DNA of 62,556 bases, the filler included, from Globobulimina sp. (lineage: Eukaryota): the NCBI GenBank assembly GCA_003354225.1. It is 41 parts of 41 records of this genome, joined end to end, with 100 filler letters (N's around TTAATTAATTAA, not from the genome) between each part and the next. Parts side by side here need not be neighbours in the genome. Positions count along the whole stretch, not along the records: positions 61,130 to 62,556 come from PIVH01016851.1; 40 more parts are not named here. One strand, 5' to 3'. The notes under the pieces were generated by a model that was given only the letters and a program-made list of their open reading frames with translations, had not been told where the DNA came from and did not search any database. Below, one piece after another: positions 1,818 to 62,556 of the stretch. Position 1 is the stretch's first letter, and every line of letters starts with the position of its first letter. Made by a program: the position numbers and the translations under genes.

Positions 1818-1910
1818 TTGTTTTAATTTTTGATTGTTTTAATTTTTCTTTTTTTAACTTTTTTATTTAATTTAACTATTGACCGTGACAGGTATGGGTA
1901 TTTGGTATAA

Positions 1911-2074
1911 TTTTGGTGATGGGTGTGACCATCACTTGTGAAATCTTTGGTGATGGGTGGGACCATCACTTGTGAAATCTTTGGTGTGCGGTATAACCAT
2001 CACTTGTGAAATCTTTGGTGTGCGGTGTAACCATCACTTGTGAAATCTTTGGTGTGCGGTGCAACCATCACTTG
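1911..2074. repeat. 34-bp tandem repeat, about 4.8 copies (ACCATCACTTGTGAAATCTTTGGTG plus 9 semi-variable nt)
   Basis: Units start at 1928, 1962, 1996, 2030 and 2064. Confidence 0.95.
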
Positions 2075-2296
2075 GTATAAAAGTATAACCGAAACATTGG
2101 TTTATGTAAAAATTATATGGAACTAGGGATTTATGTAAAAAGTATATGGAACTATAGGTATAAGGTACTATGGAACTATATAGTATATCAGAAAATAGTA
2201 ATAGTATATCAGAAAACACCGTGATATCAACAACAATAAGGTACTACGGAACTATGCAAAAATAAAAAAAAAGTATAGTATATAGGAAAAAGTATA

Positions 2297-9364: not shown

Positions 9365-9839
9365 ATCGTTAAATATATGACATTATCCTTGCACATTCTT
9401 ATGTTTTTGTACAGTATTTATAAATGAAAACTACTTACAAATGGCGCGTGCGTATAATAGTATTGGTGGAATATTTTTAATACACGATTATTAAATGATT
9501 TTGCGATTGAAAATTGATAACAGAAATATTTAGATTTTGATAATAAATTATATTCCATATATATTCGCCAGCAAAATAACCCAAAACCTCTGTTTAGTGA
9601 GTTGTTGATGCGAATGAGGCGGCCACCCAAACAAATTACAATTAACTGCACAGCAAATAAATTAAATATCCAAATATGTGCTGCAAAGAATATATCAATA
9701 AATAATATATAATAATTTAAATATATCCAATTCCTCGCAATTCCCGTATTGATATGGTAAGAATGTAATAATTGCTATATAATTACTTTCATTATTTTTT
9801 GCTTTGCCATTCCATTCCATGTGTTTTGTAATGTATTCT

Positions 9840-9871
9840 GTTCTGTGAAAACCTTTCAAGAGTAAGTATAA
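9840..9871 (+). repeat. 32-bp sequence identical to 62126..62157; contains GTAAGT splice donor after 22 nt
   Basis: GTTCTGTGAAAACCTTTCAAGAGTAAGTATAA in both contigs with unrelated flanks. Confidence 0.95.
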
Positions 9872-9948
9872 TTCACTGTTACACACATAAATTTGTGGGC
9901 AATGCATAGATTTGAGGACTGATGGATTCTTTTCGTTGTTTGTTTGTG

Positions 9949-10024
9949 TGCCGTCGCAGGATTTGAACCTGAATCTTCTGGATCCATCCATCCCGATCCA
10001 GGGCTCTTCTTGAGCTAAGCGATA
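9949..10024 (-). ncRNA. tRNA-like element (pseudo-tRNA or SINE head)
   Basis: A box TAGCTCAAG, D stem GCTC/GAGC, stem CTGGATC/GATCCAG, B box GGTTCAAATCC; acceptor stem does not pair properly. Confidence 0.7.
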
Positions 10025-10507
10025 ATAATATGGTGTTCCTTTTCTTCTGGGCATTGTGTGACCTTTTCGAACTGAACGGATGCATTAGGAAGCTGTTCGA
10101 AAAGTTTTTGAAAAATTCAGTACATATCGGAGAGCCCTAATTTGTAAAAGAAACAAAAAGATTTAATTGCCGATACCAAGTAAACCTAATGAATTTATCT
10201 CCGATCACTTCGGATTAAGGGAACTTTGTAGTAGTTTCAAATATTTTTATTTACCTTTGTTCATTGGTTTCACCCCCAAATAAAAGGGCCTGTATCCTTG
10301 TTTGTTTATACTATTTATTGTTTCTTGCTAGTGTATTATGTGAAATCTTTAATTGATTTCTTAGTGTTTTGAAAAAAAAAAAGAATAATCAATCCATCTT
10401 TTGAGTTAGAGTGGTTTTCAACGTAAACTATAGAAGTATTAGAAACATATTGAGCGGCCTGGAAATTATTCATTTAAATCGATGCTAATCTTTAAATTAA
10501 ACATCAC

Positions 10508-33787: not shown

Positions 33788-34936
33788 ACAACAAAAAACA
33801 AAACAACAACAACAAACAATTGCCAACATAAACAGCAACATTCCATCCATGCAATCCACACACACGCCGTATTTATCACATAATCAAAAATCAGCTGAAG
33901 CAATGCGTCAAATACCACACACTCCACACATTTTAGAGCTATATAATGACTATAAGATAGATATTGTTGACAGCCAATTACAACCAAAACTATCAACATA
34001 GAATTATATATTTCAAGAATATTTAGGTAATCACATTTTATTATTATGTATTTTTGTTTGTGTTTTTGTTGTATCTGTTTGTATACTCTGTATTTTTATA
34101 TAAAAAAAAACATATACATTTTTCATAAAATACCAATCAAACAATTATAAAACATGCAAGGATATATATATTATGCTGTATTATGGATTCCCTATGCTTT
34201 TTATTGGTGTTTATGAGTATAATAATTTTATGCAAGAGTGAATATCTTGATGGATGTTTCGAAGGGACGTGAATCACTTTTTAGAACGCCTCCAAATGTA
34301 ATGCTGTCGTGGAACAAAACGCAATCAATGATTTATAAAACATACACAATCTTAATTATGTGCAATGCAGAATGATATGTAAACTACAATAATTAGCTCC
34401 CACCATTTCATTCATTCCTAAATATCGCAATTCCAACGATTACCCTAAACATAAAGTTTTAAATATGCCTTGTCTCGCAATTCCAACGGTGTACTTTAAT
34501 ATTCAAAACTATCATCATTTATTTAATATTCAAAACTATCAAGTGAATCAACGAAAACAACAACAATATCCAATCTGTAACCAGCTTGTTTTTGTAATGT
34601 GTTGTATGGTTGCCGCTTTTAGTGCACTTTTGAGATATATACACTTTTGAGATATGTGTACTTTTGAGATATATACACTTTTGAGATATGTTCACTTTTG
34701 AGATACCTAAATATTCTTGAAATATACAATTCTATGTTGATAGTTTTGGTTGTAATTGGCTGTCAACAATATCTATCTTATAGTCATTATATAGCTCTAA
34801 AATGTGGTATTTGACGCATTGCTTCAGCTGATTTTTGATTATGTGATAAATACGGCGTGTGTGTGTGGATTGCATGGATGGAATGTTGCTGTTTATGTTG
34901 GCAATTTTTTGTTGTTGTTGTTTTGTTTTTTGTTGT
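33788..34936. repeat. About 240-bp inverted duplication (arms 33788..34029 and 34704..34936) with 675-bp spacer
   Basis: Arms are reverse complements apart from one small indel, a microsatellite length change and a few SNPs. Confidence 0.95.
34624..34705. repeat. 16-18-bp tandem repeat CACTTTTGAGATAT(AT/GT), 5 copies
   Basis: Directly visible; abuts the right arm of the inverted repeat. Confidence 0.9.
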
Positions 34937-38220: not shown

Positions 38221-38484
38221 TTTTGAGAATGTTCCAAGGATGGGAACATTCGGCAGGATGGTTTTAATAATGTTTGAAAAACTCATTCTCTGTTTTTGAG
38301 AATGGTCCACAGAGTGGAACATTCGGCAGGATGGTTTTTAATTTTGTGAATAACTCATTCTCTGTTTTTGAGAATGTTCCAAGGATGGGAACATTCGGCA
38401 GGATGGTTTTAATAATGTTTGAAAAACTCATTCTCTGTTTTTGAGAATGGTCCATAGAGTGGAACATTCGGCAGGATGGTTTTT
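38221..38484. repeat. 72/73-bp tandem repeat with alternating A/B variants (145-bp higher-order unit), running off the contig end
   Basis: Units start at 38221, 38294, 38366 and 38439. Confidence 0.95.
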
Positions 38485-39061
38485 ATTGTATCCGATATTA
38501 GTGGACACTTGTTAGTGTGGTTTTTAGTGATAACTCACACTGTCGGAAGATATTCGATGTTACTGAATATTTGAAAGTATAGTTAATAATGATAACTAAT
38601 ACTTTTATTAAAGAAAGTGGAATAATAGATAAAGGGTTTTTTGAGTAGGGTGGTGGCACGGCTCACTACGCGCGAGACGTTGAGTCGTGCACCCGTAGGA
38701 GACAAAGCAAAATATACAGACATATCGGTTAGTAGAACATATCAGAACACATAATTATATAAGGTAACGCATATTAAGGTGGTTAGGAAAATTATCGTTT
38801 GAGTATACTCGGAGGTTTTTATTATAACTCTCCGGTCTTATTTTACATAATTTTTAAGTATATGGTACACTCACAAAATATATCAAAACAGGTATATACA
38901 ATACTCGCGAAAAAGATCATAAAAACGCGGACCTTACTATACATAATTTTAACAAAGCCACTTTTTGTATTTTTATATTTTTATAATATTTTTGTAGTTT
39001 TTCGTATTTTTCATACACATTTTATAGCATAAGAAATTTATGCACAATTACAATATTATAT

Positions 39062-61141: not shown

Positions 61142-61798
61142 ATGCCATGAAGTAACAGAAAAAGAAATGACTTCCTTCCCTTATTATTACTATTTGGCCA
61201 ATTACAGGAGATTGAACTCAATCGTCTCCCTCCTGTGACTTTAATATTCTTTGCGATCAACATAGCAGTTCATTTCATGGCTGATTACATTCCATTATCA
61301 GATGTTTGCATTCGCCCAATATCTGTCATTCAATTTGGCCAATATGAGGTTGATTCCGTCCGCATTTTTCATGCAGATAGTTGGCATTTATACTACAATA
61401 TGGTATCATTATTATGGAAAGGAATGAAGTTCGAAAGAAACATTGGATCAGCTCGATTGTTTACGCTTATTCTCATCTCAACTTTTTTATCATCACTGTT
61501 TTCCATTCATGCGCATTACCAAACTTATAACAACCGACATAACTGATCATAGTCAATTAATATGTTGGTTGCAAATACAAATTATTCGGGGTTTTCTATA
61601 CCAACAAAATATTTATGTTGGTTTGAATTGGTATTAATAATTTTGATTACACCAAACGCGTCATTCTCAGGACATCTTTGTGGAATCTTTGTTGGTTTAT
61701 TATGTTGCATTGGATTATTTAATCCTATTTTTGAGATTGTCTATCAGTTAGGAATTGATGCAGAGAAACCAAAACAAAGAACAATGGAATATGTTTAG
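61142..61798 (+). pseudogene. Rhomboid (RHBDD1/RHBDL4-like) pseudogene
   Basis: PPVT, HLYYNMVSLLWKG, WFEL, SFSGHLCG; TGA at codon 3, internal stops near 61546, catalytic GxSG segment absent. Confidence 0.8.
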
Positions 61799-62125
61799 TA
61801 TGGAATGGGAGGTCCGTAGGATGAGTAAATTTTAATCAACTTATGATTGGAGCATAATAATCCAAATGTGAACAAATATTTGTATTTGCAAATAGGAAAC
61901 GGGAAGTATTGTCAGATGTATACATATGGAAACAGTAATAAATAATTATTGACCTTGTCAAGTAGCGCGAAAATATGATAAAATTATTCTAATACTTATG
62001 TTAAACAAATATAGAATATAATATTTGATATTTCCTTGATTTTTCCCATTTAACGCCTTGTTAGTATGTTCAAATATAAACCTGAAAATATACTGTTTTT
62101 CACAGTTGTGTGTTACTGACTACTG

Positions 62126-62157
62126 GTTCTGTGAAAACCTTTCAAGAGTAAGTATAA
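62126..62157 (+). repeat. Second copy of the 32-bp donor-containing island
   Basis: Identical to 9840..9871. Confidence 0.95.
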
Positions 62158-62256
62158 CCCACAATCCTTTCGTTAAGGACTAAACTCTGAAAGGTATAAC
62201 TAAAGTAAACCTCTTGGCAGATCCACCCAATCTCGACAGTCAAAATTCACACCACG

Positions 62257-62556
62257 ATGAAGAAAAATAGAGACCAGAATAATAAAAATAAATCACCGCA
62301 ACAAATACTCAAAGGAAAGAAACGCCCACAGAAACCGGCGCCATCCAACAAATTCGTACTCAACACATTGTACTCGCAACATAATAAAATGGTGGATGAT
62401 ATCAAGAACATTCAGAACGATTTGGAGCAATTAGGTCAGAGAAAAGAGGACGTTGCTCACAGGAGTAAGCAAAACGCGGTCCTTCGACATTTAATGGATA
62501 ATAAAAGAAAAATATCGAGAACAATTAAGAATTTGGAATTAACGATGGGTAAGAAA
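62257..62556 (+). CDS. Basic, coiled-coil ORF open to window end (possible mobile-element ORF), preceded by a probable 5'UTR intron 62148..62220
   Basis: MKKNRDQNNKNKSPQQILKGKKRPQKP...; 100 codons without stop; not in the ORF track. Confidence 0.6.
   Translation, partial: MKKNRDQNNKNKSPQQILKGKKRPQKPAPSNKFVLNTLYSQHNKMVDDIKNIQNDLEQLGQRKEDVAHRSKQNAVLRHLMDNKRKISRTIKNLELTMGKK

What the first reader, a model, noticed from the sequence alone, without database searches (positions are those of the whole stretch)
62097..62556. Same leader-plus-donor island cis-linked to a 73-nt intron and a new ORF
Seen: here the GTAAGT donor (62148) is followed by CTAA branch-like motifs and a CAG acceptor at 62220, then a basic coiled-coil ORF from 62257 that runs off the contig. 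The region is structured: ACCTTTCAAGAG (62137..62148) pairs with CTCTGAAAGGT (62185..62195) around an inner TCCTT/AAGGA hairpin, and TTTTCACAG (62097..62105) pairs with CTGTGAAAA (62129..62137). Known: CRE/SLACS/CZAR and NeSL retrotransposons target SL genes, and Penelope-like elements keep 5' introns. Inference: either a mobile element that inserted into or captured a leader exon to gain a leader by cis-splicing, or the autonomous partner of the element at about 9800..10024.
Basis: partly seen in the sequence, partly recalled or inferred. Interest (0 to 1): 0.72.

Follow-up and report, generated by a model that had tools for sequence, protein, structure and literature searches.

The report
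LINE capped by its inverted tail
This is the front end of a LINE-type jumping gene in a single-celled eukaryote whose first 30 letters are a mirror copy of its own last 30, and the same short cap sits on shortened copies and alone next to gene ends, which suggests the element copies its tail onto both sides of the cut when it inserts.

Summary
All motifs are at the stated places, but this is neither a leader exon nor evidently an intron. 62129-62556 is the 5' end of a LINE. Overlapping contigs extend the ORF into a CCHC-knuckle ORF1, an endonuclease-RT-RNase H ORF2 and a 3' UTR ending in the reverse complement of the 30-mer plus poly(A). The GTAAGT lies inside this inverted tail copy. A sister LINE, 36% identical, has its own unrelated inverted cap (the scan noted that family before, e1-7349905). 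New here: caps also head 5'-truncated copies. 100 of 189 sampled termini are caps alone, with 5'-type short T-runs, restart stutters and the geometry of 5' ends: gene 3' ends face them on the inner side (48/64), as they face true 3' ends on the outer side (12/16). Best model (0.65): both target nicks are primed on the RNA 3' end, and the second, short cDNA primes second-strand synthesis, a routine form of the 'dual priming' only postulated for L1. Main rival: an inherited terminal repeat. The 62097/62129 hairpin joins two unrelated elements. No RNA data were available.

The parts
62129..62157 (+). 5' cap of the LINE: 29-nt exact reverse complement of the family's 3'-terminal bases; contains the GTAAGT; preceded by TT (62127-62128)
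   Evidence: shared by 8 full-length copies with unrelated flanks; 3' ends of L027, L043, L026 carry its reverse complement plus poly(A)
62158..62162 (+). variable cap/5' UTR junction
   Evidence: 7 different junction sequences in 8 copies between a near-invariant cap and a conserved downstream stem
62163..62256 (+). 5' UTR, with inner hairpin (62165-62179) and a segment (62184-62195) complementary to the cap, i.e. a near-direct repeat of the element's 3' end; the proposed 73-nt intron (62148-62220) is unsupported
62257..62556 (+). start of LINE ORF1 (basic/coiled N-terminus), cut by the contig end; in other copies it runs on to three Cys/His knuckles, followed by an APE-RT-RNase H-CCHC ORF2
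   Evidence: overlap path C16851-C7737-C24865-C8295-C16047-C7072-C24151-C10492, 85-98% identical overlaps between different copies
61851..62110 (.). separate multicopy repeat ending in CACAGTTGTG (DNA-transposon-like end); supplies the TTTTCACAG arm by coincidence
   Evidence: Logan contigs also diverge behind 62110
61151..61798 (+). left flank: rhomboid protease gene fragment broken into two frames; not part of the element
   Evidence: PF01694 in both pieces
9843..9873 (+). cap-only copy of the same 30-mer, between two CTGTT (9838-9842, 9876-9880); on a different contig (C16817)
9956..10017 (-). tRNA-like sequence whose 3' end faces the cap-only copy (same geometry as the gene-facing caps)
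   Evidence: RF00005 24 bits, E 0.008, below the gathering score of 29; ARAGORN found no tRNA
10145..10383 (+). 3' fragment of the sister LINE family with its own terminal motif and poly(A)

Best explanation
SHOWN: 62129-62556 is the 5' end of an APE-RT-RNase H LINE (family A) whose first ~30 bp are an inverted copy of its last ~30 bp. A distant family B has the same plan with an unrelated sequence. Caps head full-length and truncated copies and occur alone, and both families are found mostly just downstream of cellular genes, facing them. INFERRED mechanism: the endonuclease nicks both strands so that each nick ends in T. The gene-side nick primes ordinary reverse transcription on the poly(A) tail (long A-run). 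The other nick is primed on the RNA 3' end as well (same or second RNA) by 1-3 T:A pairs and gives a 19-41-nt cDNA. That short cDNA joins the end of the first cDNA, wherever it stopped, through 2-5 nt of microhomology and primes the second strand. If the first cDNA is lost, the cap remains as a scar. The GTAAGT 'donor' is simply part of the tail read backwards.
For: LINE identity. Inverted ends on single contigs in family B: 21 bp in C30, 25 bp in C31 with A13 and an 11-bp TSD; families A and B are 36% identical in ORF2. Caps on copies truncated at different points of the 3' UTR: L026, L032, L139, L140, L141 and family-B L200, plus tail-only doublets L214, L152, L163; cap variants match their subfamily's 3' end. 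Junction microhomology of 2-5 nt, read by eye. T-run <=3 in 43/43 5' ends and 87/100 lone caps, >=7 in 33/40 3' ends. TSDs in 6 of 8 two-ended copies (9-13 bp) all end in T on the cap side. A gene end faces lone caps on the inner side in 48/64 against 20/60 on the outer side (p 5e-6), and faces true 3' ends on the outer side in 12/16 (p 0.003 against lone-cap outer; no difference from lone-cap inner); the result holds at a second threshold. Restart or slippage signatures at 10/100 lone caps against 44/6398 background windows, including a family B-to-A chimera, L166.
Against: No RNA ends and no biochemistry. Two sets of four copies each (L085/L110/L111/L266 and L247/L252/L255/L280) and the pair L005/L007 share identical cap-body junctions despite different flanks, which fits inheritance. 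The cap pairs with a 5' UTR segment in three subfamilies, which suggests it may be in the transcript. Three of 8 two-ended copies differ by one base between cap and own tail (L032, L139, L157). The test of whether lone caps extend into 3'-only sequence was weak: 6 favour 3' (4 of them only for lack of a 5' reference of that variant), 2 favour 5', 92 tie. Only 8/100 lone caps have an adjacent TSD (control 3.8%), so their inner junction is unexplained. Clear restarts at true 5' ends are few (2/43, both imperfect). Classes were curated by hand: 7 of the 40 3' ends were assigned partly by their T-run, 6 of 189 termini were dropped, and the sample favours long contigs. The gene-facing bias could come from selection instead of targeting.
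Confidence: 0.65

Rival explanations
1. Inherited terminal repeat. The transcript starts at the cap, its two ends pair, and selection keeps them complementary. Truncated copies get the cap by a template jump to the RNA's 5' end, and lone caps arise from priming near the 5' end.
For: Identical junctions in two four-copy sets and in L005/L007; conserved cap:5' UTR pairing; the lone-cap geometry is that of a 5' end under this model too.
Against: Truncated copies carry the cap with no 5'-UTR-specific bases; short caps of about 13-16 nt and tail-only doublets exist; stutters lie at the outer end, where priming would start; TSDs include the T before the cap; over half of all termini would need priming within 40 nt of the RNA 5' end.
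Confidence: 0.2
2. Snap-back. The first cDNA's growing end folds back onto its own start, at the AATT palindrome that ends the cap, and copies it; the target's T then pairs with the first A.
For: L214 is a near-perfect palindrome centred there; caps match subfamily tails.
Against: Does not explain lone caps without a tail; L032's cap has a base that its own 3' end lacks; no long T-run at 5' ends (43/43 <=3).
Confidence: 0.1
3. One reading: a leader exon with a donor, captured or targeted by the element and cis-spliced through a 73-nt intron.
For: Canonical GTAAGT, YAG in 7 of 8 copies, and an intron length typical of this genome.
Against: The motif is the element's own tail reversed; the position reads GTAAAG or GTGAAG in other subfamilies and family B's cap has no GT; 0/8 spliced copies; only 6/64 lone caps are followed by an ORF in leader orientation; no SL RNA match in Rfam. 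Incidental splicing of some transcripts is not excluded.
Confidence: 0.03

Closest known systems
APE-type LINEs with RNase H: I group (Ingi, I, Nimb, Loa, R1, Tad1, Loner, Outcast), plant L1, Proto1 (list from PMC4640811, passage read)
   Same: Two ORFs, ORF1 with Cys/His knuckles, ORF2 APE-RT-RNase H-CCHC, poly(A), variable TSDs, 5' truncation.
   Different: Inverted copy of the tail at the 5' end of full-length and truncated copies; cap-only scars outnumber element ends; ORF1 is very long (roughly 1,200 aa over overlapping copies) with no Pfam match. Clade not assigned.
Twin priming and the postulated 'dual priming' of primate L1 (Meyer et al. 2010, PMC2837659; 12 passages read)
   Same: Both nicks primed; the product is an inverted piece of the RNA 3' end at the 5' junction, within TSDs.
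   Different: There it is 39 rare loci with 14-39 nt of poly(T) and no element sequence, and the authors could not tell twin from dual priming. Here it is the rule, the T-run is 1-3 nt and the inverted piece is 19-41 nt of element tail.
Penelope-like elements with inverted pseudo-LTRs (recalled)
   Same: Retroelement whose 5' end carries an inverted copy of terminal sequence.
   Different: APE and RNase H instead of GIY-YIG; poly(A) tail; the inverted part is only ~30 bp; no hammerhead match.
Dictyostelium TRE elements targeting tRNA-gene flanks (PMC5006619, PMC3159450; abstract starts only)
   Same: Position-biased LINE insertion beside genes in a gene-dense protist genome.
   Different: Here the neighbours are 3' ends of protein genes (36 of 53 ORFs beside lone caps and 6 of 17 beside 3' ends have cellular Pfam domains, none RT); targeting versus selection is untested.
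Unnamed LINE ORF2 of the foraminifer Nonionella stella (EukProt, P0008)
   Same: 49% identical to family A over 796 aligned residues, the closest named relative.
   Different: Protein only; its termini could not be seen.

Membership tests
APE-type LINE with RNase H | ORF2 with APE, RT and downstream RNase H | tested here: met
   PF14529/PF03372 (E 4.5e-11), PF00078 (4.6e-31), PF00075 (7.5e-08) on overlapping family-A contigs; all on one ORF in family B
APE-type LINE with RNase H | ORF1 with CCHC-type knuckles upstream of ORF2 | tested here: met
   three Cys/His motifs read directly; no Pfam hit; Atlas leads to CCHC proteins at only 0.84
APE-type LINE with RNase H | poly(A) 3' end, variable TSD, 5' truncation | tested here: met
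   the window copy's own 3' end and TSD lie off the contig
I group versus Proto1 or a new clade | placement by RT phylogeny with labelled references | not tested
   the tree script returned nothing and no clade-labelled references were held
SL-targeting CRE/SLACS/CZAR, NeSL | restriction-like endonuclease (PMC4640811 passage for CRE; rest recalled) | tested here: not met
   APE found instead
SL-targeting CRE/SLACS/CZAR, NeSL | insertion at a fixed site in a leader gene (recalled) | tested here: not met
   8 of 8 full-length 5' flanks unrelated
Spliced-leader RNA gene or leader relic | conserved intron part behind the donor; exon part at 5' ends of genes (recalled) | tested here: not met
   sequence after the motif unrelated among copies; 6/64 lone caps precede a same-strand ORF; no Rfam match
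Spliced-leader RNA gene or leader relic | leader on mRNA 5' ends | not testable with these tools
   no RNA holder listed
Penelope-like element | GIY-YIG endonuclease or none, pseudo-LTR, hammerhead (recalled) | tested here: not met
TIR DNA transposon / MITE | transposase, fixed-length TSD, no poly(A) (recalled) | tested here: not met
   RT present; TSDs 9-13 bp; poly(A) outside one repeat only
Dual priming as defined for L1 | 5' poly(T) of 14-39 nt with no element sequence | tested here: not met
   T-run <=3 in 43/43; cap is element tail
Dual priming as defined for L1 | second nick primed on an RNA 3' end | tested here: inconclusive
   indirect support from T-runs, stutters and geometry; contrary signs

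The most novel reading that the evidence does not exclude
A lineage of foraminifer-type LINEs has made dual priming its standard way to close the 5' junction. ORF2p primes both nicks on the RNA 3' end and uses a ~30-nt cDNA as its own second-strand primer, which renews an inverted terminal repeat at every insertion. It is also steered, strand-specifically, to the zone just behind Pol II gene ends, where failed events leave hundreds of cap-only scars that record where the enzyme cut.
Probability: 0.45. Interest if true: 0.85.

Novelty: new variant of a known kind. Interest (0 to 1): 0.72.

Why it matters
How a LINE joins its 5' end and starts the second strand is described as poorly understood (PMC6895275, abstract start seen). 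An element family in which each insertion leaves a readable, subfamily-marked 30-nt record at that junction makes the step directly testable: mark the tail and look for the mark in the cap. It would be natural evidence for dual priming, which the one paper in the library using the term only postulated. It also warns annotators: such caps mimic spliced leaders, MITEs and DNA-transposon ends. A bias to the zone behind gene ends would be another way for LINEs to live in gene-dense genomes.

Tried and rejected
Spliced leader and intron: rejected (see rivals). TIR DNA transposon or MITE, my first idea: rejected once RT, poly(A) and variable TSDs appeared. Penelope-like element: rejected. Lone caps as LINE tails on processed mRNA copies, my working idea: rejected. 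About 8 of 12 frame breaks inspected by eye in the neighbouring genes are GT-AG introns (the other 4 look like frameshifts); no convincing TSD at the far end of 17 extended loci; a T-run follows the cap in only 6/100 against 2.8% control; the one gene tested (L260) had no second copy among 40 of 82 candidates scored. Lone caps as ordinary tiny 3' ends: rejected by T-runs and by the side on which the gene lies. Ribozyme in the 5' UTR: no Rfam match; an HDV-like pseudoknot considered by eye was not conserved. Empty target sites: not found among held loci; in L260 the cap abuts a gene-family 5' region about 7 nt short of where other members diverge. Reads: no RNA holder listed; contigs of run X1, possibly the source sample and of unrecorded kind, show no joint at 62147/62221, which says nothing on splicing. 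Metagenome scan: 4 short loci, none reaching an element end. RT tree: no result. Literature: searches listed no paper whose title or abstract start describes LINEs with routine inverted tail caps; the library lacks most subscription journals and Repbase Reports, I saw most hits only as listings, and I read no supplements.

Full report
Setting. The window is a string of ~1.4-kb contigs separated by N spacers; the finding lies on the last one (G000:C16851) of a 70-Mb eukaryotic assembly. The closest named relative of the element's ORF2 is from the foraminifer Nonionella stella, so I call the host foraminifer-like; that is inference.

Observation. The 32-mer has 29 genome matches against 0 in the control and its first 18 nt have 199 against 1. 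Eight copies carry the same hairpin and, where the contig reaches, the same ORF; all begin at the 30-mer and have unrelated left flanks, so 62129 is an element boundary. The TTTTCACAG arm at 62097 belongs to another repeat that ends at 62110, so that hairpin is a coincidence of two ends.

What the ORF is. Walking through overlapping copies (85-98% identical overlaps), the ORF becomes a very long ORF1 with three Cys/His knuckles and no Pfam match. It is followed by an ORF2 with APE, RT, RNase H and a terminal CCHC motif, then a ~1.2-kb 3' UTR that ends in the exact reverse complement of the 30-mer plus poly(A). No single contig holds both ends of a full-length family-A copy, so this rests on tiling. 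Family B, 36% identical in ORF2, shows the plan on single contigs: 21-bp inverted ends in C30, and 25 bp with A13 and an 11-bp TSD in C31, with the two differing bases matching at both ends. Its terminal motif has 263 exact matches against 0.

The intron. No copy lacks it (0 of 8), one copy has no AG, and no ATG precedes 62257. The donor lies inside the inverted tail; it changes in other subfamilies, and family B's cap has no GT. In its favour, 7 of 8 copies keep YAG and 73 nt is about this genome's intron size. No RNA run was listed, so splicing is unsupported, not disproved.

The termini. I classified 109 family-A and 80 family-B termini from fetched loci, mostly on the longest contigs. After hand curation there were 40 3' ends, 43 5' ends and 100 lone caps; 6 were dropped (three too near a contig end, one the second end of a doublet, two degenerate or chimeric). 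T-runs before the motif are >=7 in 33/40 3' ends, <=3 in 43/43 5' ends and <=3 in 87/100 lone caps; 7 of the 3' ends were assigned partly by that run. Caps head copies truncated at five points of the family-A 3' UTR and one of family B, in the variant of their own subfamily, with 2-5 nt of microhomology read by eye. Three insertions are little more than two tails head to head (L214, L152, L163). TSDs of 9-13 bp flank 6 of 8 two-ended copies and end in T on the cap side. Lone caps are 19-41 nt, exact at the outer end and variable at the inner end; 10/100 show restarts, slippage or a family chimera against 44/6398 background windows; only 8/100 have an adjacent TSD.

Geometry. Among lone caps with enough flank, a long ORF ends within 400 nt on the inner side in 48/64 and on the outer side in 20/60 (p 5e-6); ORFs leave in 6/64 and 24/60. 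These are cellular genes: 36 of 53 have Pfam domains and many keep introns, so my retrocopy idea failed. True 3' ends have a gene end facing them on the outer, poly(A) side (12/16 against 1/16 leaving; 16/20 against 4/20 at a looser threshold; 6 of 17 of these ORFs have Pfam domains, none RT), while 5' flanks are unbiased (14 against 10 of 28). A lone cap therefore sits like the 5' cap of an insertion whose body is missing. The cap at 9843, facing the 3' end of a tRNA-like sequence, fits this.

Mechanism. Most likely both nicks are primed on the RNA 3' end; the second priming yields the short cap, which joins the first cDNA and primes the second strand, and failed events leave the cap (0.65; all steps inferred; end-to-end template jumping by LINE RTs is recalled, not from a call). 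Against it, two sets of four copies and the pair L005/L007 share identical junctions, the cap pairs with a 5' UTR segment in three subfamilies, and the test for 3'-only extension was weak (6 against 2, 92 ties). An inherited repeat (0.2) and cDNA snap-back (0.1) remain open. Whether the gene-facing bias is targeting or selection is untested.

Comparison. It is an APE-RT-RNase H LINE; RNase H is listed for the I group, plant L1, Proto1 and Dualen (PMC4640811, three passages read); the clade was not determined (one search failed). It fails the tests for SL-targeting elements, SL genes, Penelope-like elements and TIR transposons. It works like the 'dual priming' postulated for 39 rare L1 loci with 5' poly(T), which the authors could not distinguish from twin priming (PMC2837659, 12 passages read), but differs in product and frequency. 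Eight searches (listings and abstract starts only) showed no description of routine inverted tail caps; the library is incomplete and no supplements were read. Earlier AI notes of this scan saw inverted ends in a sister LINE, a lone 19-base tag, and the 9840 motif as a possible leader; I had found the family-B ends before reading them, and took the Meyer paper from one.

Verdict. A real feature, misread: a new variant of a known kind, interest 0.72. The structure is secure (about 0.95); the mechanism is a testable inference.

Noticed in passing
window 61151-61798 (+): Rhomboid protease gene fragment broken into two frames; a contig of run X1 differs by three inserted bases and several substitutions here, so a related copy or allele exists.
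   Followed up: partly
window 61851-62110: Multicopy repeat ending in the near-palindrome CACAGTTGTG or CACAACTGTG (DNA-transposon-like; Transib-type CAC ends recalled). Its end read inward shares CTGTGAAAA with the LINE cap, probably by chance. L015 holds two such ends in opposite orientation.
   Followed up: partly
L157 (C1210) cap to poly(A), ~1 kb; related 5' ends in L165, L180, L196, L207: Non-coding, two-ended derivative of a third family-A subfamily with an 11-bp TSD; its 5' region folds back on the cap about 110 nt downstream.
   Followed up: partly
L085, L110, L111, L266: Family-B copies that lack ORF1, with the cap, about 900 bp of other sequence and then ORF2; they share one junction but carry three cap variants, weakly tracking the ORF2 lineage.
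   Followed up: partly
L247, L252, L255, L280: A ~1-kb non-autonomous family-B derivative with the same 5' start in four loci; L247 has both ends and poly(A).
   Followed up: no
L047 (C12122), L164, L211: 5' ends of another family-A subfamily with a diverged ORF1 start (30% identical) and the same cap-pairing segment about 60 nt downstream.
   Followed up: partly
L136/L134/L135 3' UTR: The family-A 3' UTR holds three or four repeats of a GC-rich unit with CCCACAACGAC...GTTGTGGG arms and several CGCTCGCT units, probably hairpins.
   Followed up: no
L032, L166, L200: Family-A caps or copies sit in or beside family-B terminal motifs; L166 switches from a B cap to an A cap at a short shared stretch.
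   Followed up: partly
L260:400-816 and at least 39 other places: A large gene family (about 80% identical) whose start region abuts a lone cap about 10 nt before the apparent ATG.
   Followed up: partly
L097:8072-8222, L112:4285-4416, L192, L137: Small inverted-repeat elements (29-37-bp arms, ~150 bp), probably MITEs.
   Followed up: no
window 1878-2081, 34608-34726, 38221-38485: Short tandem arrays with periods of 34, 17 and about 72 nt on other contigs.
   Followed up: no
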